Assembly (NCBI GenBank): GCA_002633005.1
Contig: NMRA01000097.1
Coordinates: 831,734-895,733, forward strand
Origin: Phoronis australis
Lineage: Eukaryota; Animalia; Phoronida
DNA length: 64,000 nt
Reading direction: 5' to 3'
Shown: piece by piece, positions 12,844 through 62,400 of the stretch
Numbering within the stretch: the stretch's first letter is position 1
Layout: the number at the start of each line of letters is the position of its first letter
Position numbers and translations under genes: made by a program
The notes under the pieces: generated by a model
The model's input: the letters and a program-made list of their open reading frames with translations, nothing else
Database searches by the model: none
Told to the model about the DNA's origin: nothing

Positions 12844-13532
12844 GTAGGCGTAGAGCTGGAGAGTGACCATCGTCTCTAGCTGGGTATCCCACCCCCCTCC
12901 CATTAATTGTTTACAATGTGAGGACATTGACCTACGCTCATGATTTTGAGCTAATTTACCGACACTCATATTTTGCAGAGCGTGGCTCCTTTAGTTCAAA
13001 CTGACCGAGACCTGTCTATCCCGAGTTACAGTCTCAAGGGTTTGAATTCCTATAACGACCCTGGTATGCATACACCAATAAGAATCTGTGAAACAGAAGT
13101 TGTTCTCGAGGTTCAAATAAGCAGAGAGTATCACTTCAGAGAATTTCGTGGAAAAGTAGTCAAGTTATCACAATTTGGAAAAGGGTGAAATGCTGCCCCT
13201 TGATGCTCCATGTTATCTCAAGAAAACTTTGGGGAATCTCACAGCCAAATGCCATTCAGAATTGATGATGCTGTTTCATTCATTAGCAACAGGTGCGAAC
13301 ATGGCGGTGTCAACTGGGAAATAGTGCGAACAGAAACTTGACTGAATAGTGAGGAAATGCGGTAGGGGACACATTCATATATTTTTGGAATGAGAATGAT
13401 AGGTGGAACGATAGCAAAATCATGTGTGTAGGTCAATTTCTTAACATTGTAAACAATTCCCTCCCCCCCCCCCCTCCCCCCAATATGCCAGCTTTTCGAC
13501 TAATTATGTCTCACGCTGATAGTATTAAGTAT

Positions 13533-13983
13533 TGTTGTAATAGTGCTTCCAGTGAATCATATGAGCCTCTGTTAGCTACTTGCTAACGGGCAATTGCTTA
13601 TTAGCTGAATGGTTAGTACGCTTGCCGGTGTTATGGGGGTCGCTGGTTTGATCCCTGGGTCGGGTAATCTCAACAATCACTACAATTGGTGTAGTCGACA
13701 AACGGATGGTATGCCAAGGAAGCACTGCCTACTCAGGGGCCTGTGGACCTCGGACAGGGAGCAATTGGTGTGGATCCAGAACACAGGAGAGCATTGCTGA
13801 GGGCATATTACAGGACTGCGCCTGTGTTCTATAGGAAAGCGGGGAATGAAGTAGACGTGCCTGCGGTGATATATGAGCCTCTGTTAGTCACTCACTTGCT
13901 TAGTAGCTAAATGATTAGCATGTTCGCCATTGTTATCGCGGTCACTGGTTTGATTTCTAGGTCGAATCTCAGCAATTACTACA
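13533..13983 (+). mobile_element. Non-autonomous miniature LTR retrotransposon (TRIM) with tRNA-like LTRs
   Basis: Direct repeats 13533-13684 and 13847-13983, each TG...ACTACA. PBS TGGTGTAGTCGACA at 13687, PPT AGGAAAGCGGGGAA directly before the 3' LTR, flanks GTAT/GTAC. A box TAGCTGAATGG (13602) and B box GGTTTGATCCC (13645) lie inside the LTR. Confidence 0.8.
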
Positions 13984-14007
13984 GTACCTTATACGCATAG
14001 AGCTGAG

Positions 14008-14280
14008 TGGACATTGCCATCGTCTCTGCTTAACAATAGAGACGGTGATGCTCCCATAGGGTCTTCATATGACGTAAGCTTTTTGGCGAATTGTGCCTCA
14101 CACTGGTTAAACGATCAAAATCACATTGCTATAAATACCTTTAGCGCATGGAGAGACACCTTAGGAGGCCATCGATATTTTAATTCCTTCGAAGTTGAAA
14201 ACAAATACTCCCGTAATCAGAATTTTTTTCGAGCAGTCCTTTGTTCAGTTGCCCAAATCGGCAACTGGCTATTTTTTTCT
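14008..14280 (+). mobile_element. Solo TIR of the same Mutator-like family, just upstream of the kinesin ATG exon
   Basis: CCATCGTCTCTG..., GGCGAATTGTGCCTCACAC, GACACCTTAGGAGG and TTCGAGCAGTCC are collinear with 52278-52550. Confidence 0.7.
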
Positions 14281-14430
14281 TTCTCGCACAGACACCTTTC
14301 CCGTGATTGTTGAGACTTTGCGGTTTGACCACTCACGTTTTATTTCCTTGTGTGTTTAATGCACTGATTAGTTTGTTGTTTACTACCGACAGAGTCTGCT
14401 GGACAGAACTTAGAGCTACGTATAGTAACT

Positions 14431-17400
14431 ATGGCGACCAGAGAGCGAATTAAAGCCAAGAAAAAGAAGGTCACTGCACGAGTGGCCCCTCAAGCTCCTT
14501 TGGACAGTGGTAGGCTTTTTCACTTGTGTTCACTTTGCCCATTAAAGGGCAATAGTCGGATGTAACATGCCCATATTTTGAGAACCAGTTTGGTGCCTGT
14601 TATTTGATGGAGAAAACTGGTTATCAAAGTTCATTTTATGACAATGTTTGTGATCATTGTTGGGTGGGAGAGACTTCATGAAGTTATTATTATTGTTGGG
14701 TGGGAGAGACTTCATGAAGTTATTATTGTTGGGTGGGAGAGACTTCATGAAGTTATTATTATTGTTGGGTGGGTGAGACTTCATGAAGTTATTTGCTTTG
14801 ACTAGAGCTAGAAAATAACATAATCTGTAATGTTTTTGGGATTTGAGATATTTAAAATCACCAATTTCAGCCGGTGTCTAGCACACGTGCTAAAATGAAT
14901 GGCCTGTGGCTTGACGATAAATGTAAAACACTGCCAGCTATATCAAGGGGGATTAGTTTTGGCTGTAGAGTGTAAGACTGTAAACGCAAGGGTACCAAGT
15001 GTAAAGTCTTTTAAGCATATAGGATCGACTGGTGAAAAAGCTTGAAATGGTCAATTGTTGAAGATTACTTTTGAACCAAAAGTGAATTACGCCTTTGTTT
15101 TTGAAATGGACACAGTCTTAACGGGTAAATGGGGTTTAGTATTCGAGATGTCTAGTTATTTGTCATTCTTGAAGTGAATAACTTTGGTGTATGACATCTT
15201 TGTCTAGCAGTAGACATAGAGTTCAGTTCAGAATATGTTAACTTGGATCTCGACTTGACAATTTGACAGGTTGGCTTGAAATGTGATGAAACAGGGAAAG
15301 AATTTGAGTTATGTCTACTGTGTTATCTTACGAATAACGCAGGCATGATTCACTATATGGCAGGGTATTTCTGTTATTTCTAATTGTCACGCAATATTTC
15401 ATAATTTCACGTTGAAGCAAGCGTTTCACTGGTGGAAATTTGATCTATTTTAACTCACTATCGCTGAGTGAGACTTTAACTCACAAATTCATCATTCTAC
15501 ATAGGTTTTGTGTAAAAATAGCATCAAGAAGTTTGCGTCTGGTGAAATTCTGGACAGGTGGAATTCCTGGGTATCTATTTTAATTGAGCATCTTGTTTTC
15601 CACGCGGTCTTGTGTATACAAACTTTTTGATCAAAATATTCATCGATATGTCATAATTTCTGTTGCAATTTTGCATAAACTAATCAAGTGCAATGACCGT
15701 GTTTAAACATTCTCTTTGCTACAGAACTCCTTTCTGATGATGATAACAGGACAGAGCAAACCAATGTAACCATGGAGACGGAGCTGGACATCTCCGGTGT
15801 CCCTGCCGCAGACAGTGCACCTAAGGGCAGCATTATCTCTGTGAAGGAGGCTGCAGGCAGCCAAGATCGCCATGGGTTACCAGAGGTATTTGTTGTCATA
15901 GGAACGTTGTTAATCTCGAGGGTTGTCCCTAGGCAAAACCCCCAACTTGGATTAAACTGTGCATCCCTTTTTGTGTGCCATGCAACTCGCGAACATCCAT
16001 GGTGCAAATTTGCATTATTACACTTGCTGAGGGTTTTACTGTTATTTTTACAACAGACACAGAAATAAGCACCATTTTGTTCTTCTACCCTTCCTTTGAT
16101 GTCACGAATAGAGACTTAAGACTTCAAACATGGCTCGAGATTCTAAAACATAGCTCAGGGGTCTGTCTCAGGAGAAGTGACTTAAAACTTAAGCCAGAAA
16201 TTTGGTCTTACACTCCACACAATAGGTAAATCTCATTTAAGTGGATGTAGGACCTTATTGGCTAGCCTGTGCATTTGGTGATTAATTTTTATCAATCTGC
16301 TATTGATTGGATCATGTGACAGTGTCTTCTTAATAGTAACATTTAGAAAAAAGAAAAGTAGTTCCCTAGCAAAGCGAGGGCAGATCCAGGATTTTTTAAA
16401 AGGGGATGGGGGTCGGATCAAGGATTTTTAAAAGGGGGCCCCAAGTCAACAATGTGAAAATTCTTGATTTGATATCACTAAAATCAAGGGAAATGGAGGG
16501 TCTGGACCCTCTTGACTCCCCTGGATCTGCCTATGAAAGCAACGGTATTTTTTACTAACTTGGCCAAAATTTACTTGATAATGTTCAAGATAAACCCTCC
16601 AAAATAATTTTACAAGTTTCTAAATTATCACTTCATTTTTGTTGTTTGTAAGTCCAGGCCTAGTTTGATACCGCATCATGCAAGTGGTACATTTGTATTC
16701 GTAAACTGCATCTTGGTGAACATTGCATATTCTGAAAGTTTCATAGAAGTCCAATTAGTCATTTCTGTCAAATTCAGACCTTTTCCGAGGGTCTTACATA
16801 ACCGTATCAGGAAAAGTACAGTGTCTGAGAATATTGGGATGACTGCTAGTTACTGAGATAATTTCTAATTTATTTCTGGTCTGTAACGTGAAGTGGGAGT
16901 ACAAAACGGAATTTCTATTTTAGGTCTTAAGTCACAGTCTTGAAACGGACCCAGAGCTTTTCAAATATGTCACCAGCATACCACACATGGCTGGGGATTT
17001 TCAAACATTACGCTGGGCCATGTTCCAGCTCCTTCTCATAGAACACTTTGACAGATAATAAGTGTAGTTGAGTACTAGGATTTAAATTGTACCTTGTAGA
17101 CAATGTACCAGACTGGTGAGATCACTGAGTGAGATCTCTTGCAAATAATAGTCTGCATTCCGTGTGGGAGTACAGCATCTGTTCAATCCCCAATTTGCTG
17201 TACACTTTTTGTAATTAGAATACTGGTAGGTTCGACACAGCACAGATATTTCACCATTATTGTTTCCGTACCTCAATATGTTTTATATAATTTTTTTTCA
17301 AGGTATTGAGTTCACATTGTTTAGCATTCTTTTTACATATGTGTTCTCAGGATGAACGATCAGCCAGTCAGCAGTCGGGCAAGTTTCGCACATCAGAGAT

Positions 17401-20400: not shown

Positions 20401-23400
20401 AGCGGCGGCAGAATGAATAACTGACATTTTTGATTATTTTGCTAGATGGCGTTCTACAATATCTGACAATTTGACGCGATGTGCAAACTTTTTTGTAATG
20501 AAAATTACGCCAATTTCTCAACATCATATCAGGGTCCTCGATGCCTCGATTTTGATGCGAATATCAGCTCTATTCCCCGTTTGAAAAGATTCAGGGCTTG
20601 GAATTTTCCGCGGAAACGCGGATTTCCGCTTTTTTCAAATGTTCTGTCCGCGCATTTTATTATATTTCCGCGTAAAAAAAATCGGATTTGATCTAAAATT
20701 TCCGCGGCAAATTCCTTTCTTACCGCGGTGTTGCAGACGACGTTCACCTCGAAAAGCGGAAGTTGCTCTTTATGTTTCGGAGGAACGTAAATTGTCAACA
20801 TTGCCGGGGCATCTGGGATAGCGTGGTGGGATTTTCAATGGCGTCTCGTGTTATTGTAAACCACGGCGACAAATACTACGGGTCTTCAGCCAAAAATGTG
20901 TGGATTGGGAGTGGACGGACGAGCTAAAAGGACGCAGACGCATGCTACTGATGGTGGTAACGTTTTTTTTTAGTCCTCCCGATTTTTGTCGGGGGAAGGT
21001 TCACATCGACCATTTCAAGGCTGGGTAGCGCGCATGATTTGGGCCGTAAAAGTTTCCGCGTTTTTTGTCATTGGTCATTCNCTATAAAATCGTGAAACTC
21101 CAATCATCAGACATAAGATTCCCTTTAATGATTAAAAAATTCCTGTCAAGGTTAGAATCACTTCAATGTGTAACACGTTACTTTTGGCTATTGGAGACTA
21201 TGCCTATGAGATCCAGCCACCAAGATGAGGAGTTACCTTGACCAAAAAATTAGCCTCCCAAAAGGCACAGATGAGGGAGGACCCTACACACTCTAAGTCA
21301 AGTAAGAGGGTCTGTTTCTCTGTCCAATTTGTTAGGGTATCAAGAACACTACACTGTCAAAGAGATATAATAATCCCAATACAGTGTCATGTAGTGAGAT
21401 GTGCTGTGTTCAGACCAGCATTGGGTAACTTGGTAACTTGTCTTGACTTTGTTGGGTTCGTGATTCAGAGAGAAATGTGGTGCTGTGGTCCTCTTGGCTC
21501 TTAGCATGTTTATGGTGTTGGTGTGCGCAATCCAAATTTTGTGCTTATTGCTTTAATTCCAGGTTTTCCACGGCAGTTTTGTATTTAAGGTAACCTTGAC
21601 AGTGTCGCTTATCCATAGGTGTAAGGGCAGAATGTCTGGGACACCGACTGAAATCAATAGGTCTAATGTTAAACTATGATTTTATAAACTGGAGATCATC
21701 ACTCATGCTTTAGCTGCAGAAATATAGGCCTCCAAAGGCACTCTCGATAACATTGTTTTGTCCTAGACTTTACATACTGGCATGTCTTATCTGATTTCAG
21801 GGCCAGTTCAATATCTTTGTGCTCAACCTGCGCCGTACATACAAGGAAAAGGTTTACACGTTTAGACAAGTGATTGAGTTGCACCGAGATGACCTCAACA
21901 GGAAACAGGACTATTGGGACGAGTCACTTATCGTAAGTTGCGGGATCAGAATTTAAGAGAATTCGAGGAACTGATGAAAATCAACTGCCATTACTGGAAG
22001 TCCGGATATCCAAAAATTTCTTTCTACTTCATTTTTGCTAAAATTATTATAAGAAGGAATTGTAATGCAGGTCAGATTAAATGAAGCACATTTCCTAGTG
22101 CTGTATCAGTGTGGTATCATATTTTCATTTCAGAGTTTGAGCGAGCGTAATAAGAAGTTATTGAATGACAAGAGAGCACTGTTGATCCGTAACAAGGTGG
22201 AGTTTGAACGTCTAGAGAGAGAGAAGGAAGAAGCGGTCAAGCAGTTAACCCATGAACTGGACACGGTCAATTTCAAAATGTCCGCAGGTGAGGCTGTGTT
22301 AATATTTGACGGTGTTAGATTTGTCTTTGAAGATCTGTACTCCCTCAGCAAGTTTCTGTCCAATACCCGGCCAATTTTTCTCCTGGCACTCTTTCCAATT
22401 TCCAACTCCCTTCCCACCCGTTCAGTCACCCATCCCCCTACCCATCANCCCCTCTTGTACCTTCAGCGACCCCCAACCCTTGTGTAAACACTCTCCCATA
22501 CCAACCCCCTCCCTGCCTGTACCCTATGCCATCCCAACCCCTCCACAGACTCTGCTCTCACCAATCCAATTATCTAGCCCTTTATCAGAAAGTCTAAAAG
22601 TCTTTGAGAATCATAGATTATCACTGACTAAACGTGTATTAATTTCTTGTTTACTTTTAGCTGAAAAAGAGCATGTGGAGTTGATGGAAAAGCAGAGACT
22701 GGAACACGTCCAGGTGGTGGAAGAGAAGGACAAGGAGACTAAGGTATTTGCATGCTTTGGCAAGGCATTGTGGGAACTGTTAGTGACATGTGGTGTTAAC
22801 GCTTTCAAGTGTCCGTGAACGTAATGTACCTAAAAGTAGCACAGTGTAGCTTAGAGTTGAGGAAGTCTAGAAAAAAATGAAAATCGTAAAAGAATGAACC
22901 AAACATTTTTGGGAGAGAATTTTTTTAGGTTATTGGCGGATAAAGTATTATGTTTTTAAAGTTAAGTTTAACTGCAATGTCTCGATCTTTACGTCCAAAG
23001 ACACATATTATTTGGGATTGTTGAGAGAGATAGATATCTTGAAGTTACTTTCTTTGACCAGAACAATAAAACAACGTAATGTATTGTTTTGCAAATCTCC
23101 AATTTTCACCATTATTTACCAGCCGTTCGTTGAAATCAAAGCCGGTGAATTTACCTATTAGGTTCAGCTGTGCCAGTAGAGTGTTGGACTCTGACTACTA
23201 AGGTTGTGAATTCAATATTGCGTTAGGTCTGAGTTCAGAAAACCATTTTTCTCACTTTGAAACATACTCAATATTACAGTGAATATCATTTGACGTGTAC
23301 TAGTAGAACAGATTGTCGTCTCCCACTGGGACACTGTTCGTGGGTATAGGATCGTCTCAACAGGCATTCCCGAAGTAAACATAGCATAATAAACAAACTT

Positions 23401-32400: not shown

Positions 32401-35400
32401 ATTCATTGGCACTTGAACATCCATTCAGGGTTTGGGTGACCAGCTGTCAGAACTGCAAAAGCAAATCGATCGTTTAGAGGCGGAGCTAAGAGCGGAGCAG
32501 TCTGCTCACGAAGTGACACGTGAAGAGCTGGAGACACTGAAGCAGCAGTTGTTGATAGTGAATGACAAGAGTCAGGAAGAGAAGGCGGAGCTAGAGAGAA
32601 AGCTGGAGAGTGCAAAGTCAGTGACGGAGGCACAAGTTGTGAAATTAGAGAAGGTATGAAAATCATCGGCAAATAAAAATGGGATTAAATCCATGCTGTC
32701 TGTCAAAATCGCAAGTTTTGATTTAGGCCACCTGCTGTTATGAAACTGGCCTGCAATTGCTGTTTAGTCAAACTGGGAATGATCTCAGGTCTTCAGACCA
32801 AGCTAATGAAATTTCAGGTCACACTGTGAACATAAAGTCAATGACGCATGACCCAGTCGATTGCAGAATGGTAGTTAGTCAAAATTCAAATTCTGCTGAC
32901 TTTCTACTTTTGAAAAATTCTGATTTGTATTTTGAAGCTTTCTATGTATGAGTTTGAGTGCGCATACTCGTGGATGATATCCTACATAACTTTTAACACA
33001 GAAGAGAGAGACAAGAAGATGAAATTTTGCTTCTACTTTGCAGTATGTTTAAGGAATCTTTCTCGAGACCTGTTTACACAGGGCGCTGCAACTGTTTTAC
33101 GGCTTAGTTATGAGCGGCACCTTTCTCGTACTGTAAACTGCCCTCATTATTTAATCTGACAGATTTGATGACACAAGGCGATCGTAAAGCAGTCTGAACA
33201 TTACTGTACTCTTGTTTGTTGTATTTACTGTTATCCAGTCTGTTTGTTTAGGAGCTTAAAACTGCAAAGACGGAGATTGAAGAGTTAGAAAAAGCCAAGT
33301 TTGCCAACGCTCCTGTTGATACGACTAAAGAGCTAAAAAAGCTACAGGAAAAGATAGTGAGTTACATCAAAATGTTTCATCTGCGTTTTATCAAATGTTT
33401 CATAGTGTTGAGAGAGTTCTTAAAGCAAAGATATATTAAAACAGTCAGTTATTTCTTTGAATACAGCAATTTGTGTTGCACATTTTAACCTTATTTGTGG
33501 TTTTGAACAGTTAAATTTATCATTGTAATGTATCCTGTTGATCTATCCTCTGCTCCTTGTACTCAAAGCTGAACTCAAAATTATTTTTGACAATTTATGC
33601 TCTATTTTTGTGTGAACTCAAGATATCTGTTACTTAATGATCAAGTACACAATGCCTTACATGACATGTGTAACCCTAGTTTGTCCTTGATGACCAAGAA
33701 CCAAAAATTAGGAGTTTGAGAAACATAATATAAATCACGACTTATATTATTGTTTATTTATCGACTCTACAAGATTGGCTGCTTCCAAACTACTCTTAGT
33801 ATGCGTCATGTTAGTTTCAGAGACAGTTTTTCAATATGTCTCCTTAGCACTTACAGAATGCGTTGTGTTGAATCATGACCTTCAGTATATTGTCTGTAGC
33901 CACCGATAGCATGTTGTTTCTAGCCGCAGTGTTTACACTGTCCAACAACTGAATTTAGAAGTGTGGCTTGGGCATTTAGTATATCTTTTCTTTCTCAGCA
34001 TGCATTATTTATCGTGTCTATAGAAATCTCTGGAGAAGCAAAACTCCACCATGTCATCAGCAAGCATCACCATGACAACGGAGATCAAAGAATTGAAGGA
34101 CAAGTTGAATGTGACGGAAAAGTCAGTCAAAAACCAGGCGGCACTAGTGTTGGCTGGTGAGGTGAGTCAGCGGGAAAACGTTAATTCTCTCGAGCGAATT
34201 TCATGTCGATGATAAAATAGCAAATCTTTGGGCATAACGATGAAGGAACCTTGTTGTCTGTGGCAAGTTTTGTCTCCGTTTTTCTTGTTGTTTTACATTG
34301 TACATAATTCAAATTAATTTGTAAGATGTATTTCAAACTATAAGTTTTTTATCTTGATTTAAGATTAAAGTGATGTAACTCAATAAATGAAGATTTTATT
34401 CATTGTGTTGTTAAATATTTTTGATTTCGCTGTAATTTGAAATCATTTAGACTGTGACCAGTCATCAACTTTATCCAGTTTGGTTTCTGTCGTCTGCCAA
34501 ATTAGGTCAAGGTCAAAGAGGCGCAGAAAGAGAAGGCGATGCAGATTAAGAAGATGGAGCAAGAGATGGCGAAGAAAGAAGAGAAACGTGCTGCGGAGGA
34601 GAAGAAGAAGGTGGCAGCACTGGAGAAGAAGATTAAGGAGCTCCAAGCAGCAGCTGCAGGAGCTCCATCTGGTGGACGGCCCACGACGGCAGGGGTAGGT
34701 CATGTTAAGTATGATTTAGACAAAGCCATCGGATTGTTTATCATTTTTATTGAAGATAAGAAGCACCAAAGTTCAATTTGGCCGATTATGGTTTTGAGAT
34801 CATGGTGAAATCTCAGCCTAAACTGAAATCTTCTGGTGACATCATTGAGTGTCCAAGCGCGTTGTCGTCTTATTACTTTGACAGCCATGTTGCATTCGAC
34901 ACATAAAGCAATATCCATCAAAATAGCTGGAAGTGATTGGATTCCAGTTTAATGTTTGTCATACTGTGCTTGTTTTCCTCTGTGTTTGCTTACGCTGCGT
35001 GTTTTGTAATGCATTCACTGCCAATATTGAGTTAATGGGCTCTTTAGAGTGTGCCAAGTACATTATTACTACTAATTTAGTACATAAACCTGCACTTTCA
35101 AGTGTGCAGTCCAAAACATGATCGGACAGTCTTCCAACATATGGATTCAAGTGTTTGTATGCTCAAGTTATTATTAGTGTGCTCGAAAAACGACCTAAGC
35201 ACTCAAATCCGTAGGTTGGTAACATTTTGAAATTTTAAACTGCCGTCTCGTATTTTCGAACTTCACACTGAGGCTCACAAGTGTAGGTTTGTGCACTCAC
35301 ATAATTGGCTGCGCTCAAATGTAATGGGTGCCTTGAAGTACTTATTGTTAATTGTTTGGTAGAAAAAAATGTGTTATGCNTACAGCAAAATGTTTCATTA

Positions 35401-38400
35401 TTTGTTTTATCAAATGTTTTATAGTGTTGAGAGAGTTCTTAAAGCAAAGATATATTAAAAAACAGTTATTTCTTTGTACACAGCAATTTGTGTTGCACAT
35501 TTTAACCTTATTTGCAGTTTTGAACAGTTTTTGTTAAATGTATCAATGATTGTAATGTATCCTGTTGATCTATCCTCTGCACCTTGTACTCAAAGCTGAA
35601 CTCAAAATTATTTTTGACATTTTATGTTCTATTTTTTTGTGAACTCAAGATATCTGTTAATTAATGATCAAGTACATAATGCCTTACATGACATGTGTAA
35701 CCCTAGTGTGTCCTTGATGACCAAGAACCAAAAATTTGGAGTTTGAGCAACAAATATAAATCATGACTTATATTATTGTTTATTTATCACTGTACAAGAT
35801 TGGCTGCTTCCAAAATGCTCATAGTATGTGTCATATTAGTTTCATAGACAGTTTTTCAGTATGTCTCCTTAGCACTTACAGAATGCGTTGTGTTGAATCT
35901 TGACCTTCAGTATATTGTCTGTAGCCACCGATAGCATGTTGTTTCTAGCCGCAATGTTTACACAGTCCAACAACTGAATTTAGAAGTGTGGCTTGGGCAT
36001 TAAATCCTTTCTCAGCATGCATTATTTATCGTGTCTATAGAAATCTCTGGAGAAGCAAAACTCCACCATGTCGTCAGCAAGCATCACCATGACAACGGAG
36101 ATCAAAGAATTGAAGGACAAGTTGAATGTGACGGAAAAATCAGTCAAAAACCAGACGGCACTAGTGTTGGCTGGTGAGGTGAGTCAGCGGGAAATGAAAT
36201 GTAAAACGTTAATTCTCTCGAGCGAATTTCATGTCGATAAAATAGCAAATCTTTGGGCATAACGATGAAGGAACCTTGTTGTCTGTGGCAAATTTTGTCT
36301 CCGTTTTTTTTTGTTGTTGTTTTATATTTTACACAATTCAATTTGATTTTGTAAAATGTATTTCAAACTATAATTTTTTTATCTTGATTTAGGATTAAAG
36401 TGATGTAACTCAATAAATGAAGATTTTATTCGTTGTGTTGTTAAATAGTTTAGCTTTCGCTGTTATTTGAAATCATTTAGACAGTGACCAGTCATCAACT
36501 TTATCCAGTTTGGTTTCTGTCGTCTGCCAAATTAGGTCAAGGTCAAAGAGGCGCAGAAAGAGAAGGCGATGCAGATTAAGAAGATGGAGCAAGAGATGGC
36601 GAAGAAAGAGGAGAAACGTGCTGCGGAGGAGAAGAAGAAGGTGGCAGCACTGGAGAAGAAGATTAAGGAGCTCCAAGCAGCAGCTGCAGGAGCTCCATCT
36701 GGTGGACGGCCCACGACGGCAGGGGTAGGTCATGTTAAGTATGATTTAGACAAAGCCGTCAGATTGTTTTATCATTTTTATTGAAGATAAGAAGCACCAA
36801 ATAAGACTTTGTTTTGGCAAAGTTCAATTTGGCAGATTATGGTTTTGAAATGGTGAAATTTCAGCTTAAACTGAAATCTTCTGGTGACATCATTGAGTGT
36901 CCAAGCATGTTGTCGTCTTATTACTTTGACAGCCGTGTTGCATTCGACACATAAAGCAATATCCATCAAAATAGCTGGAAATGTTTAGATTCCAGTTTTA
37001 ATGTTTGTCATACTCTGCTCGTTTTCCTCCGTGTTCACTTACGCTGCGTGTTTTGTAATGCATTCACTGCCAACATTGAGTTAATGGGCTCTTTAGAGTG
37101 TGCCAAGTACAAACCATCCAAATATCTGTGTGCACAGGTTTTTTAACTTGAGCGGACAGTTTTCCAACATATGGATTCAAGTGTTTAGATCATTTTCAAG
37201 TGTTTGTATGCTCAAGTTATTATTAGTGTGCTCGAAAAATGACCTAAGCGCTCAAATCCGTAGGTTGGTAAACTTTTGAAATTTTAAACCTTGACTCGAA
37301 CTTCACACTCACAAGTGTAGGTTTGTGCACTCGCATAATTGACTGCGCTCAAATGTTTGGGTGCCTTGAAGTACTTGTGGTTAATTGTTTGATAGAAAAA
37401 AATGTGTTATGCATTGTCGCGGATTTCATTTTTGATTTTCACGGATTATTTTGTTTCACTTTTGTATTTATGAACTGACTAGTGTATTTATCTTTGTATG
37501 TTCCACAGCCCAAAGGTCCAGATGCCAAGTCAGAAGCCGCCATTAAACAACTGAAGGAACAGGTTGAAAGACTGAAGAAGGAAGGTGTGGAATTGAAGAA
37601 TCAGAATAAGACCATGGATGCAGAACTGAAGAAGGCCAAGTCAGAGCTGTCATCTGCTGGTGCCCAGGATGTAAGCTCTTTGGTTTTGAAGTGTGTGCAG
37701 TTTTGTTTATGTTCCACATATGTCCCTTGCAAGTTATGATTCGTCCAAGTGGTAACTCCATCTAGTGTTTGGTCATGGAACCTGAAACTAGTTTTTCTCA
37801 GAGTGGTGGCCATGTTGCTGGTCCTGCATGAACTGATGTCTAAACTTTCTTGTGAGACTTTTGTTCTTCCTAAACAACTTTGTCACATCCTGGTCATTTG
37901 TTTGTCTTAATGAATTGAAATTGGTTACTATTTTGGTGCCTGAAACTAATCTTCTGTGACAATCAACTTAGTGTGGGGACTGAAGCAATGAAAAACTGTC
38001 AGTTCTTCTCGCGTCTATAAATCAGTATGTACCTAAAGTATGTAAGGAACTTTTTATAACAATAAGTGGCCTGTATCATTAGTTATTTCTTGACAAGTGC
38101 GGGTTTGTTGCGCCTTTAAATTGTGTGCACAGATTATAGAATGGCGCGGTCGTGAAGGTCTGATGTTTTTCTCACTCTGTAAGAAGATCCATCTTATTTC
38201 AGAAACAAGCTGTCAAGAAACACGAGAAGATACTGAAGGAGTTGGAGAAGAAGTTGGAGTTGGAGAAGAAGAAAGCGGAGAAAAATGAAGAAAACTTCAA
38301 GACGAAACTGGAAGAAGCAACTGAGCTAGAAAAGGTGATGATAATCTCTTCTTGCTGACTAATCTTTAACTTTGTGAAGTCACTAATGCCTGAGACTCGG

Positions 38401-49739: not shown

Positions 49740-52700
49740 TTACCGCCTCCTCTGTGTGCTGATGTACAAAACTGTAAAAATGAAACCTATTAACAAATAA
49801 TTTCTGGTGAAAAACAGGATCCTATATGTGCTAGAGAAGTGTGTTCACATGATAAAGCACGGTTTGCAAGAAGTTATAACTTATGCATGCAAGCACTTCA
49901 TTCGAGCCNGCCTCAGAGAAACAGGAAGTCCGAAAAAAGTAGAAAATGAAACAAAAGCAGTAACTATCAAAATTCGGCAAATGCACAATTCATAGCTTTG
50001 AACGTACACCGCTTTTTCTTAGTGGAAGGTCCACATTCTCAAAATTTCAAGCCCCCCGTCCATTTTTAGGCTGGGTGATGTGAACACAGTAACCTACCAT
50101 TGTTTCCCCTGATGAACGCGTCGCCATATTTATTCTTCAACTGTCCATTAACGTACTCTTCTGTCTGCTCCAAAGCTATGTTCATGTACCCATCAAGGCA
50201 GGACAACACACCTGCAATTAAAATACTTGATTATCCATCCACTTGAACACTGTCTACACAAATCTTATGGACCGTCTAACTAATAACAGTAATTTCATCT
50301 CCTCAACACCTGTCCTTCATGGATGCTGTACCAAGAGAAGTCTACCTATCACGAGATTTAAGCATCCTCACTTTCACATACTTAAGGCCTCATTCATCTA
50401 AGGAGAGATTTTTCAGGAGAGAGGAAATCATCTTCCTCTCCCCCATCGCCACTAATAGCACCCCCACCCCCGTCGGCACCCCTCATCAACTTTGCCAAGT
50501 AAGTACCTAAAACTAATGTCCTGTATTGCTCCAAATCGTTGCCTGTGTTTGTTTCAAGTGATTCTAACCTCGGAAAGATTATTAGTCACTTGATGGATAT
50601 TTTTGAGCCTGACGAGGGAAATTTCATAATTTTTTCAAATATTTTGGGAGGAGTTTGGGCTAATATTTGGCCCCAAAATAGAGGATTCTGTACTTGAAAA
50701 TAAATTATAGTTCACTCTCACTAGACTAGAAAATATTAATTGATTTACTCACTGTTCATTTTTGGCTAAAACAGACATTTAAAGAGTTCCGGGAGGTTTG
50801 TTGTTACTTGATGTGTTGTGTAAACTTGTGTGTATGGTTGTTTTGTCAAAGCCAATCCACACAACCATTTTTTTAATTCCCACAGTCAATCTCAGTAATT
50901 TGCTGAACTCTTTTCAATTGTCAAAGGTGCCAAACTTGAATTTTGATGGTGATGTAGAAAAATCCACCAGTACTGAGACTTGAACCGGGTATCTCTAGTG
51001 CGTAAGTACACTTTTTGTCCATTACCAAGCGGTTTAGAGAGGCTTTTTTCAACAGTACGCCACACTCGGAATCAGATTTCACGTGTTCTGGGGGTGACTA
51101 AGTCTCCTTTCGCCTTCTGCCAGCGAGTCCAGGATCTCACTGTAGATTCACAACAGTTTTGTATCACGACTTTCAGTTTGTATGCTCGACTTTCACGCTG
51201 GGAACCCTGGTTCAATTCTTGGTATTGATTTCTCAACATTGATTTCTCATTCACTTCTTTTTCCCCTTGTTGTGCCTACTACTCTCACCAGGGGATGTGA
51301 CGTCTTATCCCCTGTCACGAGCAATGCAAAAATGGCTAGTAGCTGATTTGGGAAACTGAACAAAGGACTAGTCTTCTTCTTCTTCTTCTTACGGTTTCAA
51401 AAAATGATCAAAATACTGATCCTTATATGTTAGTGATAAACTGAACTGTGCATAACTATGAAAATAAAAGCAAAACAAAGTGCGGTATAGTGCCAGAATA
51501 AAATTAATTTGTTTACTGAGTAAGGTTGATGTTAGCCTTGGTACAAAGCTGTATATAAATATACAACTTTGCAACGATGTGGGTAAAAAAGTGGTAAGAT
51601 AATATCTGACACAAAATTAGTGCCGTTAAAAACTACTGTTTTCCTTGAGTAAACAAAATTATTTAACAAGGTTGGAAAAAATGGCGTTCTACCAATATTC
51701 TGCTGCTAAAGTTGTGGAGCGATCTTTAGCGACGGGTTTCGGCGCCATGAAATATTGCGTCACCAATTGGCCAGTTTCTTTTGTTGCCGATTTTTTAATC
51801 AACTGCTGTTCTTTCACGAGCTTGCATACACGTCACAACAAATTATTGGAACTGGTTTCACATCATTACAAGTTTTTAGAATTTCGATACCGAAAAACCG
51901 AATTTCAGAACAAATTTTGCTTCTCCGAAGTTGTCGCGAAAATTTAGGAAATGGCGCATAACACAAACATATTGTTTTCAAAACGACGACATACTTTTCA
52001 TTGTTAGAAAAGGCGGAGAGTTACGCAAGAAAATGACGTTTATTGCATTGTTTTTCACTTAAACGGCTGTAACGGGCAAGGTGAGTATCGGTTGATTCCC
52101 AGATTTTGCATGCACCCTGTCCGGTCTTTAGCTTAAACATTTTGATACAAGTTTCACGGCGCAGAACTACCCTGACTGCGTGCAATTTCGGGGTCTACGG
52201 AAGAAATACACACAGTGGTACCTAGCTGTATTTTGACGACAGTCTTCATACAGTTAGCTGGCTGGCTAGGTTGATGTTAGGCAATGACCATCGCCTCTGT
52301 TGGCCCGAACCAGAGACGATGCAGCTTTTGTAGGCGCTCCATACGCCGGAAGCTTTTCGGCGAATTATGCCTCGCACCGACTAAACCATCAAAGTCGCGT
52401 TGTAATAAATACCCTTTGCGCATAGAGGAACACCTTAGGAGGTTGTCGATGTGTTTAATTCCTTCCAACTCGAACACATACTCCCGTTATCAAACTTTTT
52501 CTTCGAGCAGTCCCTATTTCAGTTCCCAAAATCGTGAACTCAACATTTTCACTCGGCGCATGCCAAGAGTTTCTTTTACCAGGCCGAAGGTGTCAGAAGT
52601 TGTGGTCCTACTGGTGAACTTTGAAAGCTGAAGTTCCCGCCCTTTGCGTACATGCTGCCGGGAACCAGCCATGCATATGCCGTGTTGTTAAACATTAAAA

Positions 52701-53401
52701 TTTCAAATATGTGCGCAAAGACTATTAAATGTCATATCAACAGCATTTATTTTTATCAAATACAAACAATAATTCATTGAAATACAATCAAGTAACGCCA
52801 ATTAAAGACAACTATAAGAGGTGGCATTTTGGAAACAAACATTTGACTGACAAGACCGCAATGGATCACCTTTGGCCTATTTAAAGATTGAGGTCATGAA
52901 GTCACATCACCTAGCGAGCACGGTAAAAATTGGAGCGTGCGCAGTATAAAAATGGTGAGTTCACAATTTTGGGAACTGAACGAGTGACTGCTCGAACAAA
53001 AAGTTCGATAACGGAAGTATTTGTTCAAGTTGGAAAGAATTAAACACACCGCCAACCTCCTAAGGTGTCCCTCTATACGCAAAAGGTATATATAACAACG
53101 TGACTTTCATGCTTTAGCCAGTGCGAGGCATAATTCGCCGAAAATCTTCCGGCGTATGGAGTGCCTACAGGAGCTGCATCGCCTCTGCCTCTGGTTCGGG
53201 CTAACAGAGGCGATGGTCATTGCCTAGGTTGATGTTTGAGATGTGAACATCTCTCTAGTCAGAAACAGGAACAGTTGTGTTTTAAAGATTGCTAAGTAAC
53301 TTCCTCTACAAACCTCTGTAATCGACACCAGAATTCAACTTTACAACAACAGGTCTTCCAATAATTTGCTTCAAAAAGTCGCTTGGAGTTTTACGGCTCA
53401 T
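49740..53401 (-). CDS. LSM6: U6 snRNA-associated Sm-like protein LSm6, complete, 77 aa (exons 53314-53401, 50098-50211, 49740-49771)
   Basis: Spliced translation: MSRKTPSDFLKQIIGRPVVVKLNSGVDYRGVLSCLDGYMNIALEQTEEYVNGQLKNKYGDAFIRGNNVLYISTQRRR*, nearly identical to metazoan LSm6. Both introns are phase 1 with canonical splice sites. The gene is absent from the ORF track. Confidence 0.97.
52278..53226. mobile_element. Non-autonomous long-TIR DNA transposon (Mutator-like) in LSM6 intron 1
   Basis: About 310-bp imperfect TIRs starting TAGGCAATGACCATCGCCTCTGT and ending ACAGAGGCGATGGTCATTGCCTA. A perfect 9-bp flanking duplication GGTTGATGT lies at 52269-52277 and 53227-53235. No transposase ORF. 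Confidence 0.85.
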
Positions 53402-53631: not shown

Positions 53632-56600
53632 ATGGCGACCTCCTGTTGGAAGCTGACGCTTGCAATGATGAGAAACGGAATGTTGGTGCCTACCTACCTT
53701 CTTGTATTTTCCATGTTTTTTTCCGTGTTTTCCATGTATTTATTGGTTAAGTGGGGAACTATTTAGTTTTAACATTAAACATCCCGTTAAAGTATCTTTG
53801 TCTCATTAACTTTGTGAAAATGTTCGTTAAGTTTGTTTATTCCTGGACCTGTTAGTGTTAACCACACCTGTTGTCGGTTGACGTTTTGACTTGTGGCTGA
53901 CTTCCCAGTTTAACCAGGAGACAATGTTTCGACAAGTCACGTGTTTACCTCGTAGTCCAATGTTGGGCGGTGGCATGCAACCGAGTTTCGAATTGATCCA
54001 ACTACTGTTCGTGGCTGGTGTGATTCTACCGGCAAAATACAACTGACGTTAATCTTTGGACAAGTCTAACCCTAACCTAGACAAGGTCTATCGTTTCTAC
54101 TGGCATTGGAACAGTTTTGACGAATTATGCCTCGCACTGACTAAAACATCAAAGTCACATTGTTATGAATACCGTTTACGTATAGAGGGACACCTTAGGA
54201 GGCTGTCGTTGTATTTACAATTCCTTCCAATTCGAAAAATTCTCCCATTATCAAACTTTTTCTTTGAGCTGTCCTTCGTTAAGTTCCCAAAATCAGAAAC
54301 TCGTCATTTTTAACACTGCGCGCGATGACCTCCTAAGGTGTCCCTCTATGCGCAAAAAGTATTTTTTACAACGTTACTGATGTTTTAGTCAGTGCGAGGC
54401 ATAATTCTCCGAAAAGCTTCCTGTGTATGAAGCACCTATATGAACTCTACCGTCCTACTGGCATAGGTGGTCACTGTCTAACCGTTACCCTAACCCTAAA
54501 CCTGTGGCTGAAAGTCCTAAACCCTTTGAAGGATCTTTTGGCTAGTTATATGAAACTAATAAACATCTCTAGAAGCATACTGTTTGCAGTTGTGGGTACA
54601 TTTCAACAATTTACATTGCTCTTGTTGAATTTCATATCCATAGTCTGCAAACGGAGGAGTAAGTTTCAGTGATATCGCTCACTTCGATTTTCTGTTCTCA
54701 AACTTTTTAAGTTCACAGCAACAAAGATTTTTATGTCGCTAATTGTTCCCAAGTTCTTCAAGGAACTTTTATTCGTTATATGTTTCATTCCAGATTCCAG
54801 GCATCATTAAATGCAAGAAACTTTTATCCTGATGTAAGAACTGGACAAGCTCTTCTGTTCAACTTTCGGTGTGCACAGTCAGTTAACTACAGTAAAAACT
54901 GCAATGTCCAGTGCTGGAAATGTGGACGGAAGACTGACGTCAGCACGGAAGAGCGGTTTATTTGCTCTGGATGCCAGACAATACAGCCACCACACCCGTG
55001 TCTGAATCATTTTGACGTGATCGGAACAGAGGAAACGTTCAATCTGGATGTGAAGAAGTTAACTTCAACATTCAGGAAACTCCAAATGGAGTTACATCCT
55101 GATAAGTTTTCACAGAAGTCTAAGGTGAATATTTGAAGATCTTCGTCCTTGTGTTATGAAAACTGAAATGGGCTTTGCAAGTCTATGGTGAACAACCAAT
55201 ATTTCTGTAAACTTAAGTAGTTATTGTAAGGATAAGATAAATGATACCTTAAATTGATTTTTGCTCAATTATGGTTATTGTTAAATAAATTCAATCAGAC
55301 ATTCATAGAAATGGCGTGAAAGTTTAGTTATATCAAGTAGTTATGTTAAAAATCCCCACTAATTTCAGACATAAATAATTGCCAAAACCATCTTTTTCAG
55401 TTTTAAGAGACTTCTACCATTGTTGTGATTTCCCATAATTTTTCTAAATGGTGTAAAGAACTTGGAAACGGTACTGGTTTACTTTGGTATTTACCTATCT
55501 TGCATGAAAAAACAAAATAAATTTTACTTGTCAAATTCTGTCTTGAATTGGGGAAGGTTTACAGTATTGCTAGTGAAACTACAACTCTCGCCTGTTACGT
55601 AACAAGTGTGAAGGATCAAGTTCTCATGGAATGTTGCTAGAGTTGTTATTGTAGCTGACTGGTTTCTGTAGTATAGATCACAATTTTTTTTTTTGGTCGA
55701 ACAGGCAGCGTGCACAATATTCCAAAGTTACACAGTCAGTATTTTAATTCATTTACAAACAACAGGATGGGGCTGACGAATAAACTGTAGGTCCTTTCTT
55801 CATGCCTTGTGTTTGCCAGCCCACTTGCCACTCCCACTGTAGCGCCACCTTTCCATCTGAGGAAAAGTTAGATATCCATATCTCACTTGGCACCTGGCCA
55901 CCCTTTGTCATCCTCCAGGTGTTGATGCACTGTCCTGTTGCCCTTGGTTGGCCAATGTGCTCATGCTCAGTGCTGGACAAAAATATTTGTCTCTAGTACT
56001 CTTCATTTGTTTAGCAGACAGTGTGACTGACAAGAGAATTTCTATTTTATTAAATACCTCCAATAAAGTAAGGATTAAACCGTTTTAGTTATTACAAGCA
56101 CGGATTGTGGTGTGTCAATGTCGTTAAAAACAAACTTTGCTGAAACTCCATTGTTTGGCAAAAAGTAAACATCTTTTGGAAAATGGCCAATTTGGTGTTT
56201 ATTTTGGTCTGGAATAAGTGAAGAATTGTCGTAATATGAATTTAACAGTGCAGCTTTCTGAGTTCTGATATTTTGTCATTTCAGGAAGAGAAAGAATTCT
56301 CAGCTTTACAGTCATCTTTACTCAACAAAGCCTACTTCACTCTATTGAAGCCAGTATCCAGAGGATTGTATATGCTTGAACTCAACGGAAAAGCGGTGGA
56401 GGAAGGGGAGGTAATTATGGACCCGGAATTCCTCATGGATGTCATGGAAACCAATGAAAAAATCAACAACGAAGAGAACACAGATACTTTAAAAAGGATA
56501 GAGGAACAGAATGTTCAATTGTTGGACAAGATTTTGATGGAAGTTTCTCAGTGTTTTGAGAGAGGTGATGTGGAGAAAGCAAGAGAGCTGTTGACAAAGA

Positions 56601-56662
56601 TCAAGTATTATTCCAACATTGATGAAAAGATAAAAGAGATCTTTCAGTCTAAATTAGGATAG
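53632..56662 (+). CDS. HSCB: Iron-sulfur cluster co-chaperone HscB/Hsc20, mitochondrial, about 252 aa (exons 53632-53681, 54794-55124, 56285-56662)
   Basis: Tetracysteine motif CWKC...CSGC..IQPP, J-domain with LHPDKF, and HscB C-terminal domain (LLNKAYFTLLKPVSRGLYML, DPEFLMDVME, KIKYY). The first exon (MATSCWKLTLAMMRNG, phase-2 donor GTTGGT) is inferred from phase compatibility and a presequence-like composition, and is less certain. Confidence 0.93.
54077..54480. mobile_element. Internally deleted, older copy of the 52278-53226 element in HSCB intron 1
   Basis: Shares CGAATTATGCCTCGCAC...ACACCTTAGGAGG and its inverted copy CCTCCTAAGGTGTCCCTCTAT...GTGCGAGGCATAATT. Confidence 0.75.
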
Positions 56663-59487: not shown

Positions 59488-62400
59488 TCACGTGGCACCA
59501 ATGAGGACACTCTCTTGATTTGACTCAACACCCTGAGGCTCCTGTGAAACCTCCCGTTTCACATTGCTGTTGCTTATACTGTCTCTCAATGAGGTATCTG
59601 AGATTTGTGAGCTCTCATTTATCACAGTCCTCTTTACATCTTCAACGACGTCTCCAGATTCCTTTGATAGAGGGACGGAGTTGTCGACGTGTTTTGATCG
59701 GGTCTCTGATGGTAGTGAAATGGCAGGTGATTTTGGAGGTGTGTCCCACGGGGGACTTGGACGAATGGAGACATCGTCAATGTTGTTGTGGTCTTGCAGT
59801 AAGTTTCTGGACCGGCCTACAAAAATACAAAGGCAGCACTTGCATTAATATGAGGGTTGGTTTTATTTTCATACATTGTTATGCGTCCATTTGTACATTT
59901 TGCTTACTTCTAGCAACACATAATGAAAAATTATGACCATGATCAGTTGAATAGATCATTAATGACTTTTGAAAGTTGGGACAATTAATAGCAGCTTGCG
60001 CCAACCTTTCATAGCGCGAATCAATTTCTAACACACTCGCCTTAGTGAAATTAGAGGAAAACTCGCCATAATAAAAATTTCTAAGCATGCTTCCATCCCA
60101 AAACCACGAACCGAAACGAAGGTTTTAAACATGGTGCTATAAGTCTTAAAGACTTTATTTTCCGTCAGTTGAGGTGTATGGAGTCCAGTTTAAACACCAA
60201 CAAACAGTAATTAGGAGTAAAAACATCCATTGTGTGCAAACAGTATTAAACCTCACAACAACAAACATCAACGTCGCTCACCTGCCAATGGCTTCATCCT
60301 CGCGCCACCATTACGAACCAACGACAAGGGCGTCAAGGCACCGTCCTCGACAGCAAACGGTCCCCAACTGGGCAGGATAATGAAAGCGAAGGAGAGGACG
60401 AGGACCATAACACAAGTGCCCGTCTGCGCCGGTTTACACGAGGCCTGCACCATCGCCTTCAGCCGTTTGAGCTGGTCCAATAGGGAGGTGTTCTCTTTCT
60501 CCAGTGTCGCCACCTTGCGGTGCAACTGTTTGTTTTCTAATGTACAGTGCTTCACTCTGTGCTCCAGGCCTTCCATGTAGTCCTGCTTCTTCTTACGCGA
60601 GTTCTTTGCTGACGCCTAAGAACAGGATGGCGATATGTTAATGATGATTGATGCTGTCGTCAACTTAAAAACTGGCGAAATGTTATGCATATTGTCTTTT
60701 AGCATCATCAAAACTGTGTTTGTTATTCAAGTTATTGCTACAATTATGAGTGCGGGTAAACTTGTAGAAATACAATGGAAAATGGTCAGTGCAAATGTAG
60801 ATAGTCAATAAATAGGTAACTTGATGTAGTACATGCAAGTGTAATCCTGACCAGTTCATAATCATGGATAATAAATATAACATGTAAATGTACTAAGCAA
60901 TTAATGCAACCCAGCCGTGATGCACCTTCCCACAAAGAACCTTAGGTTAAGCAGAACCAAGACATTAGCCATGTATTTGTGGTGAGAAATTTTTGTTTTG
61001 GGATACGAAACAGTGGATTCTGTGCCATACTTTATGAATTCTATCCATAATCCAACATTCCAGCCTCACCAACCTATCAGTGGCCGCAATTTTGCTGGCA
61101 ACGTCAGGACCATACTAGTGAAACACTCAACTTTCATTTAATGAGTGATGATGCGTGATCTTCAGTGACCTTGCTTTTTAGCGATATTCTTGGATCTATG
61201 GAACTGCGTCACTTCTGTTCTCGCCTTATTCCATACTCGGATGAGGATTGTTCCAGTAGTCAGTACTCACTGACAGTTCACTACATCCTGAGACTCAAAC
61301 TAACCCACCCTGTCTAGTAAACTTATTGAGCCTGCCTGGTCTCAGGCAGTAGCCAACTGTAAATTCTTCCCTAGCCCTAAAACTGCCCCTAATCTGACTA
61401 AGGAACTAGATCAGACTACAAGGCTTGGCATGACCAATGACAAAAAAGAGGAATACTTTCCCAGAGATGCATCATTCCACAAATAAATAGGCTTGTGTGA
61501 TAGAAATATTTGTTGTGTTGTAAATTTAAGCGAGATATTAAATGTTTTGGACGAATTAAGTCAAAATAATGATAAAAAGAGACGAAAATGGAGGAAACTG
61601 GAAATCGTATAAGGGAAAATCGAAACCAAAAAAGAGGAAATCCTCTTAAAAGAGGAAAGTTCCAAGTCCTGCAACTAGAGTTATAACAGTAACAGCCAAT
61701 GACGGTAAAATACATATTTTTGTAAGATTGGTTTGTAGTGTCTTCAGTATTAACAGCCAATGGGACATAACGCAGTCTGGCCCTGTTACTCCTTTACCAG
61801 TTTGAAGACTCGAGAAGAAGCCAATTACCTTATTCCTGATCTTCCTGCGGACTGCCTTGAGGACACGCTCCTCCTCCTTGGTCAGGGGCATGTCCACCGG
61901 AAGTTCGTAACCCTCCTTGGACAGTAGGTATTTCTCCTCATCACTCAACCGCAGGTGAGGTAACGACTGCAAATAGATGCAGCAACGTTAGCGATAATAT
62001 AGAATATGGACTAATCATAGCTTCGTCCCAAAATACCACAGAGCCTTGACTGGTTCTGGAATATTTACCCACAATGCTGCATGTCAGTCTGGGACTTGAT
62101 TGTTTACTGTAGCAAAGTGAAGTTTAATGCGGACACCAAGTTGTCAAGCCAGATGAGCGCGCACTATATCGCTCTTTGACTCATCTTGGAAACATTTAGC
62201 AGCCCAACTTTTCGAAAACTAAACAATCATATAGTACATTATTCTGCCTCAACAGAACAGAAAATCATGCTAACAACTTAAAATTCAAAAAACGCTGATT
62301 CAGTTCGTATTTCAACAGTGAAACAGTTAAAGGCAATGACCAGAAGAGACAGCGTTTCCCAGTGCTGGATTCCCATTTCAATAACACTCAAATCCCAGTC

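What the first reader, a model, noticed from the sequence alone, without database searches (positions are those of the whole stretch)
13533..13983. Miniature LTR retroelement (TRIM) carrying a tRNA-like Pol III promoter inside each LTR
Seen: two diverged direct repeats (152 and 137 bp), both TG...ACTACA, enclosing only 162 bp with no coding capacity. Two nt after the 5' LTR is TGGTGTAGTCGACA, a 12/14 match to the reverse complement of the metazoan tRNA-Ser 3' end (TGGCGTAGTCGGCA). A purine tract AGGAAAGCGGGGAA abuts the 3' LTR, and the flanks are GTAT/GTAC (4-bp TSD, one mismatch). The 5' LTR contains an A box (TAGCTGAATGG) and a B box (GGTTTGATCCC) at tRNA-like spacing; decayed versions are present in the 3' LTR. 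Known: TRIMs are non-autonomous LTR elements, Cassandra carries 5S rRNA-derived sequence in its LTRs, and the Helenus group carries tRNA-like LTRs (4-bp TSD in animals). Inference: this is a SINE/LTR hybrid, possibly Pol III-transcribed and mobilised in trans by a Gypsy-type partner. It may be an undescribed family. It sits in the likely 5' UTR intron of the kinesin.
Basis: partly seen in the sequence, partly recalled or inferred. Interest (0 to 1): 0.8.

Follow-up and report, generated by a model that had tools for sequence, protein, structure and literature searches.

The report
Old Helenus-type tRNA-promoter mini retrotransposon
This is an old, damaged copy of a repeated, gene-less jumping element with a tRNA-type promoter in each end repeat; it belongs to the Helenus type described in 2024, comes from what is likely a brachiopod-like marine animal, and shares with many animal Helenus families a hairpin-plus-palindrome motif that likely marks the ends of the element's RNA.

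Summary
13533-13983 is LTR (152 nt), primer site, 162-nt non-coding middle, purine tract, LTR (137 nt); the LTRs are 79% identical. Over 1,000 contigs per DNA run lie on this 900-nt stretch, most deeply on the 5' LTR. Other copies end at the same places, often follow a purine tract, carry a full 14/14 tRNA-Ser primer site and an intact B box. It is one multi-copy LTR family, not two SINEs. It meets the structural definition of Helenus (Kojima 2024); its primer site is absent from that paper's sequences, so it is likely a new family. The host kinesin groups with Lingula (61% identity), so the host is likely another lophophorate. This copy is old, with a damaged 3' LTR, probably in the kinesin's 5' UTR intron. 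Pol III transcription and the Gypsy partner are inferred, not shown. The scan has reported Helenus-type elements in many other genomes. One addition: a hairpin plus 10-nt palindrome precedes box A, and by eye such a palindrome sits there in 18/18 vertebrate, about 33/51 bivalve and 3/3 nemertean Helenus LTRs. The paper's text does not mention it.

The parts
13529..13532 (+). Left flank of probable 4-bp target site duplication (GTAT)
   Evidence: 3 of 4 match to the right flank; 5-bp and 6-bp versions match 0 of 5 and 1 of 6
13533..13684 (+). 5' LTR, 152 nt, TG...CA
   Evidence: ends shared by other copies (loose ends at 13533, 13543, 13671)
13569..13589 (+). Hairpin upstream of the promoter (8-bp stem, 5-nt loop)
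   Evidence: z -2.8 for 13560-13600; 2 of 200 shuffles as good; -11.3 kcal/mol; the only listed majority difference in other copies, 13581, is in the loop (40 of 187 rows shown)
13589..13598 (+). Self-complementary 10-mer starting 13 nt before box A (one G-U pair here; perfect in copies that read C at 13598)
   Evidence: self-duplex -13.0 kcal/mol; 14 of 2998 random window 10-mers as strong; C at 13598 in 100 and 109 contigs
13602..13612 (+). Box A of the tRNA-type Pol III promoter
13645..13655 (+). Box B; other copies read GGTTC, the Helenus-conserved form
   Evidence: (C at 13649 in 67 and 74 contigs)
13687..13700 (+). Primer-binding site for tRNA-Ser (12 of 14 here, 14 of 14 in other copies)
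   Evidence: (C at 13690, G at 13698)
13685..13846 (+). Internal region, 162 nt, non-coding
13833..13846 (+). Polypurine tract abutting the 3' LTR
   Evidence: similar tracts precede other LTR copies (table 7)
13847..13983 (+). 3' LTR, 137 nt; lacks 10 nt of the hairpin/palindrome module; decayed boxes A (13904) and B (13947)
   Evidence: hairpin -0.5 kcal/mol; palindrome lost
13984..13987 (+). Right flank of probable 4-bp target site duplication (GTAC)
14431..14433 (+). Start codon of the host C-terminal-motor kinesin (context, not part of the element)
   Evidence: the frame begins MATRERIK, the Lingula homologue MATREKIK

Best explanation
This is an old, damaged full-length copy of a multi-copy, non-coding LTR element (a TRIM) with a tRNA-type promoter in each LTR, that is a Helenus-type element, likely a new family, which would be transcribed by RNA polymerase III and copied in trans by the proteins of an autonomous, likely Gypsy, retrotransposon. 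Shown: the layout, the many other copies with shared ends, the tRNA-Ser primer site, the purine tract and boxes A and B. Inferred: Pol III starts near 13589, about 13 nt before box A; the RNA runs through the primer site and purine tract into the 3' LTR; host tRNA-Ser primes the first strand, the purine tract the second; a partner integrase inserts the DNA with a 4-bp duplication; recombination between LTRs leaves solo LTRs, which appear to outnumber full copies. This copy is likely inactive: its LTRs differ by 21%, primer site and B boxes carry changes, and the 3' LTR has lost part of the upstream module.
For: Layout and significance. Multi-copy: 1193 (X1) and 1486 (X2) contigs laid on the 901-nt stretch at 80% likeness, with summed depth peaking over 13548-13640 (other repeats at the stretch's ends also contribute, and depth is not a copy number). 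Shared ends: loose ends pile up before 13533/13543 (26+28 contigs in X1, 33+36 in X2) with purine-rich letters next to the TG, one set closely resembling this copy's own tract; behind 13671 (19 and 26 contigs) they run on to ...TACTACA. Primer site: other copies read C at 13690 (6 and 5 contigs; 22 of 22 and 20 of 20 RNA reads) and G at 13698 (8 and 5 contigs; 17 of 17 and 19 of 19 RNA reads), giving 14 of 14 to tRNA-Ser. One template: at 6 of 14 listed LTR sites where most other copies differ from the 5' LTR, the two LTRs here share the minority letter (3 of the 6 are CpG-type sites). Solo LTR: RNA loose ends give GAAG before the LTR start (81 and 91 reads) and GAAG after its end (72 and 45 reads), fitting a solo LTR with a perfect 4-bp duplication if both come from one locus (not shown). 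Helenus definition and the 4-bp/Gypsy link for animal families: PMC10886601. Sizes fall within the animal Helenus range in Table S1.
Against: No RNA read lay on 13734-13950 in either RNA run at 80% likeness (18-19% of each run read; library type unspecified), and no pile-up of RNA starts or ends was found, so Pol III transcription is not shown. RNA reads on the LTR are mostly of the orientation expected for antisense passage in longer RNAs, if the library is of the usual stranded kind. No autonomous partner was found or could be searched for. Ser-primed Gypsy (Mag) elements in a mosquito mostly make 5-bp duplications (PMC3286476, Table 1 passage), so primer type does not point to a partner. 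The duplication at this copy is only 3 of 4. No T run of 4 or more lies inside the element, so the terminator is unexplained. The loose-end consensus lines mix many loci (agreement 0.36-0.56 in DNA).
Confidence: 0.9

Rival explanations
1. Two tRNA-derived SINEs inserted independently 162 nt apart, with primer site and purine tract by chance.
For: The two repeats differ by 21%; LTR-only sequence is far deeper than the middle; each unit has A and B boxes as a SINE head does.
Against: Both units have TG...CA ends and no poly-A or simple-repeat tail; boxes lie about 70 nt inside the unit; other copies are preceded by purine tracts and followed by a 14/14 primer site; the two units share 6 minority letters.
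Confidence: 0.02
2. A chimeric copy made by recombination between LTRs of two different Helenus subfamilies or loci, so the 21% difference overstates its age and the flank match is chance.
For: Two kinds of purine tract precede LTR copies (ending GGGAA and GGGGAG), so several internal types share the LTR; the flank match is only 3 of 4; one contig joint goes back from 13689 to 13564, as tandem arrays would give.
Against: Six shared minority letters between the two LTRs fit one template; changes are transition-rich (19 to 10) as in decay in place.
Confidence: 0.08
3. An ordinary Pol II-driven TRIM whose tRNA-like boxes are an unused relic of an old SINE insertion.
For: No RNA evidence of Pol III starts; no T4 terminator; Helenus transcription has not been validated experimentally (PMC10886601 Discussion).
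Against: Other copies keep the exact B-box core while the cloverleaf is not kept, the pattern expected when only the promoter is selected; this rival is compatible with Helenus membership as defined.
Confidence: 0.12

Closest known systems
Helenus / TRIMp3, animal families (Kojima 2024, PMC10886601; main text parts 1-5 of 6 read, supplement parts 1 and 5-11 of 11 read, whole supplement searched for 12 motifs)
   Same: Two LTRs with tRNA-type boxes A and B, primer site for a tRNA 3' end, purine tract, no coding, under 1 kb, probable 4-bp duplication, solo LTRs. LTR and middle lengths are within the bivalve/nemertean range. By eye the stretch upstream of box A resembles coelacanth LTR2_Lch and mussel Helenus-1_BaPl (hairpin, palindrome, T-rich spacer, box A).
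   Different: Primer site matches a tRNA-Ser 3' end not among those in Figure S2 (which lists two other Ser types, and covers wasps, vertebrates and bivalves only); 0 hits for it in Data S1. Host is likely a lophophorate other than Lingula, not in Table S1. The three Lingula families lack the palindrome module and use another primer. The T run before box A is interrupted here.
Cassandra (plant 5S-derived TRIM; known here only from the account in PMC10886601)
   Same: Pol III promoter inside each LTR; RNA starts in the 5' LTR and ends in the 3' LTR with a short terminal repeat (18 nt).
   Different: 5S-type promoter, plants; transcription shown experimentally.
Ajax (nemertean 5S-promoter TRIM, PMC10886601)
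   Same: TRIM with a Pol III promoter fragment; by eye Ajax-1_LiLo also has an 8-nt palindrome and TTT just before its promoter.
   Different: 5S promoter, tRNA-Leu primer, 5-bp duplication.
biv-TRIM of bivalves (PMC6934838; passages read)
   Same: Animal TRIM with solo repeats and tandem forms.
   Different: No canonical primer site; palindromes and hairpins reported in the inner domain, not before a promoter in the terminal repeat.

Membership tests
Helenus (TRIMp3) | Two LTRs with TG...CA ends around a short non-coding middle, total under about 1.3 kb | tested here: met
   152 + 162 + 137 = 451 nt
Helenus (TRIMp3) | [quoted passage not shown] | tested here: met
   TAGCT..TGG; GGTTT here; GGTTC in 67 and 74 other contigs
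Helenus (TRIMp3) | Primer-binding site complementary to a tRNA just after the 5' LTR | tested here: met
   12 of 14 here, 14 of 14 in other copies, against human tRNA-Ser; the host's own tRNA-Ser was not available
Helenus (TRIMp3) | Polypurine tract before the 3' LTR | tested here: met
   table 7
Helenus (TRIMp3) | 4-bp target site duplication (animal families) | tested here: inconclusive
   3 of 4 here (chance 0.06); 4 of 4 for an inferred solo LTR whose two ends were not bridged; 5 bp does not fit either
Helenus (TRIMp3) | Interspersed multi-copy family with solo LTRs | tested here: met
   up to 100-109 contigs at one LTR site, shared ends, mixed flanks; copy number not measured
Helenus (TRIMp3) | Transcription by RNA polymerase III (proposed, unvalidated for Helenus itself) | not testable with these tools
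   RNA-seq runs show no start or end pile-ups and no reads on the middle; library type unspecified
Helenus (TRIMp3) | Mobilised by an autonomous Gypsy element with the same primer | not testable with these tools
   no genome held
tRNA-derived SINE (SINE2) | Promoter at the 5' end, 3' tail of poly-A or simple repeat, no primer site or purine tract | tested here: not met
   boxes lie about 70 nt inside a TG...CA unit; no tail; primer site and purine tract present
Functional tRNA gene | Full cloverleaf | tested here: not met
   ARAGORN 0 genes; no Rfam tRNA hit at E up to 10; acceptor and T stems pair poorly. Tested on this copy only
Retrozyme / ribozyme-bearing TRIM | Self-cleaving ribozyme in the LTR | tested here: not met
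   3 chance-level hits, none a ribozyme; only Rfam families, and only this decayed copy

The most novel reading that the evidence does not exclude
Aquatic-animal Helenus elements share an unreported cis-module: a hairpin, then an 8-12-nt palindrome whose centre changes between families while staying self-complementary, then a short T run and box A. Pol III starts at the palindrome in the 5' LTR, so the hairpin is transcribed only in the 3' LTR, where it helps the polymerase stop; the palindrome is the short terminal repeat that lets the RNA ends pair or dimerise for strand transfer and packaging. The module in fish, coelacanth, bivalves, nemerteans and this lophophorate-like host would mean one shared origin or spread, not separate births, and would explain how one Pol III promoter is read through once and stopped once.
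Probability: 0.25. Interest if true: 0.6.

Novelty: new member of a known kind. Interest (0 to 1): 0.32.

Why it matters
As a host record it extends Helenus to a likely new lophophorate host and a new primer tRNA, which is modest. The side observation matters more: Helenus has no proposed start, stop or packaging signal, and a palindrome that keeps its self-complementarity while its letters change across phyla gives a direct test of how a Pol III-made LTR RNA gets its terminal repeat, and bears on the paper's view that Helenus arose several times.

Tried and rejected
No whole genome is held, so no copy count, LTR tree or partner search. No other copy in the window. ARAGORN and Rfam found no tRNA or ribozyme. 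Exact 21-nt LTR pattern in metagenome contigs: 0 matches. No RNA holder listed by the run search; this blank is not evidence. The second read lay showed 15 of 188 joints, none a splice joint across the element, so the intron is not confirmed. The HSCB exon gave no named relatives. The first tree run timed out; the second used 31 of the 68 long homologues and left out a duplicated exon. Whole-LTR folding is not unusual (z -1.19). Self-priming by the LTR's tRNA-like end was considered; by eye its 3' end does not match the primer site, and a host tRNA-Ser does. Literature searches: 'Helenus' or 'TRIMp3' since 2024 gave 21 papers (20 listed, titles seen; one meeting-report passage read); 'non-autonomous LTR retrotransposon + tRNA-derived + RNA polymerase III + palindrome + LTR' gave 0; TRIM with phoronid/brachiopod gave no TRIM paper among 20 listed of 975; 'Gypsy + tRNA-Ser + PBS + 4-bp TSD' gave 0. 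The scan's own notes had nothing by sequence, nearby, or for the palindrome. The published Helenus sequences were compared by eye only; no alignment or covariation statistic was computed on them.

Full report
Observation. The 5' LTR is 13533-13684 and the 3' LTR 13847-13983, both TG...ACTACA, 108 of 137 columns identical (19 transitions, 10 transversions; K2P 0.255), far above shuffles. The 162-nt middle has no coding frame of note, begins with a primer-like site at 13687 and ends in a 14-nt purine tract touching the 3' LTR. Box A (13602) and box B (13645) form the only such pair in the window at one mismatch each; the 3' LTR has decayed versions at the same 43-nt spacing. The flanks match 3 of 4, which chance gives 6% of the time. 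There is no second copy in the window, no called tRNA and no Rfam match of weight.

Is it a family? No genome is held, so I used public runs of the same species label and laid two DNA and two RNA runs on 13300-14200 at 80% likeness. 1193 and 1486 contigs were laid; summed depth peaks over 13548-13640 at thousands of times the level of single-locus contigs, is roughly ten times lower at box B, and is only a few times that level over the middle. The tool warns that this is no copy number, and the DNA runs are one sample that may be the window's source. Loose ends pile up at the LTR start with purine-rich letters next to the TG (two kinds, one like this copy's tract) and continue past 13671 to the same TACTACA end. 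Other copies read C at 13690 and G at 13698, giving a 14 of 14 match to the tRNA-Ser 3' end as printed for human tRNA-Ser in PMC3299991 (one passage read), and C at 13649, giving the B-box core GGTTC. RNA loose ends show GAAG on both sides of an LTR, which fits a solo LTR with a perfect 4-bp duplication inside an expressed RNA, though no read bridges both ends. At 6 of 14 listed LTR sites the two LTRs here share a letter that most other copies lack (40 of 187 variant rows were shown). These results reject two independent SINEs and favour one insertion.

Host and position. The downstream gene is a long C-terminal-motor kinesin found in many invertebrates. Summed tblastn scores rank Lingula anatina first (1603 bits; next 1395). 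In a tree of 31 homologues it pairs with Lingula at 61% identity, with SH-aLRT 89.6 for the pair plus one unnamed long-branch protein and 53.9 for the pair alone. The host is therefore likely a lophophorate other than Lingula; one gene and one lophophorate in the sample make this moderate evidence. The start codon is at 14431. A candidate upstream exon ends at 12637 before GT, an AG acceptor ends at 14392, and four RNA reads cover 12623 in the orientation that fits a + strand RNA, but no splice joint was displayed. The 5' UTR intron is likely, not shown.

How it works. Shown: structure, copies, primer site, tract, boxes. From established LTR-element biology and PMC10886601: tRNA-Ser primes, the tract primes the second strand, and a partner's integrase inserts the DNA; animal Helenus are linked to Gypsy by primer similarity and 4-bp duplications. 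Inferred: Pol III transcription from the 5' LTR. Against it: RNA runs gave no start or end pile-up and no reads on 13734-13950, and the element holds no T4 run. This copy is likely dead: 21% LTR difference, changed primer site and B boxes, and a 10-nt loss in the 3' LTR.

Membership. Every structural feature that defines Helenus is met except the duplication, which is inconclusive but fits 4 bp and not 5. Twelve motif searches of the paper's supplement gave no hit for this primer site or for distinctive LTR stretches (line breaks can hide LTR motifs, but primer sites start their records). Table S1 lists only Lingula among lophophorates. Repbase and Dfam were not available. It is thus most likely a new family of a known kind. 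The scan's notes list 136 findings in at least 23 genomes for the same words, so the type has been met many times on other DNA.

A side result. In the 5' LTR an 8-bp hairpin (13569-13589; z -2.8) is followed at once by a self-complementary 10-mer (13589-13598) that starts 13 nt before box A. It has one G-U pair here and is perfect in copies with C at 13598 (100 and 109 contigs). Such a 10- or 11-mer occurs at 2.6% of window positions allowing three offsets; I noticed the feature after looking, so this is no formal test. Reading the published LTRs by eye, a self-complementary 8-12-mer followed by TTT and box A is present in 18 of 18 vertebrate, about 33 of 51 bivalve (one has a T-T mismatch) and 3 of 3 nemertean LTRs, and absent in 3 of 3 Lingula and the one ctenophore LTR. 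Its centre differs between families (TTAA, ATAT, GATC, GTAC, CATG, TGCA, CCGG, TCGA; AATT here). About 11 of them have an unpaired central base and could be read as small hairpins. The families are not independent, the upstream hairpin was seen in examples but not counted, and wasp and fungal LTRs were not scored one by one (I did not see the module in those I read). The paper's main text has no 'palindrom', 'hairpin' or 'dimer'; its figures were not visible to me. Palindromes drive Ty1 RNA dimerisation (PMC6844567, abstract), and upstream hairpins raise human Pol III termination at T4, less with distance (PMC13385618, passages). That tRNA-derived SINE heads start about 10-15 nt before box A is recalled, not from a call. 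Together these suggest that the palindrome is the RNA's terminal repeat and pairing signal and that the hairpin helps stop transcription only in the 3' LTR. Against it: most families have T3, below the T4 threshold in that paper, this family's T run is interrupted, and a third of bivalve families and all Lingula ones work without the module. I give it 0.25.

Verdict. Real feature; new member of a known kind; interest 0.32, most of it from the conserved module.

Noticed in passing
window 14038-14276; copies at 52278-52563, 52935-53226 (inverted), 54108-54446: A second high-copy repeat starts about 55 nt after the element; inverted copies near 52-54 kb suggest a non-autonomous DNA transposon.
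   Followed up: no
window 33363-37412: 2-kb tandem duplication (89% identical) inside the kinesin gene that duplicates coiled-coil exons (34509-34691 and 36539-36721); could be real or a haplotype artefact.
   Followed up: no
window 20591-21080: Very high-copy repeat of about 490 nt with sharp ends and AT-rich flanks; RNA reads are abundant and strongly strand-biased.
   Followed up: no
window 12905-12948 and 13415-13458: 44-nt inverted repeat pair around 466 nt just upstream of the element, in repeated sequence; likely a MITE.
   Followed up: no
window 14650-14793: 33-36-nt minisatellite with a palindromic 12-mer in each unit, in the intron after the start-codon exon.
   Followed up: no
window 54711-56662 (+) and 60268-61987 (-): HSCB co-chaperone exons (PF07743) and bZIP exons that look CREB3-like (label recalled).
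   Followed up: partly
PMC10886601 Data S1, Helenus-2_SyJa and Helenus-2_SyUm LTRs: By eye these two wasp LTRs hold a hammerhead-ribozyme-like core (CTGATGA...GAAAC) after box B; not tested.
   Followed up: no
loose ends before 13533 and 13543: Two kinds of purine tract precede LTR copies, so at least two internal types may share this LTR family; joints going back from 13689 and 13712 hint at tandem arrays.
   Followed up: no
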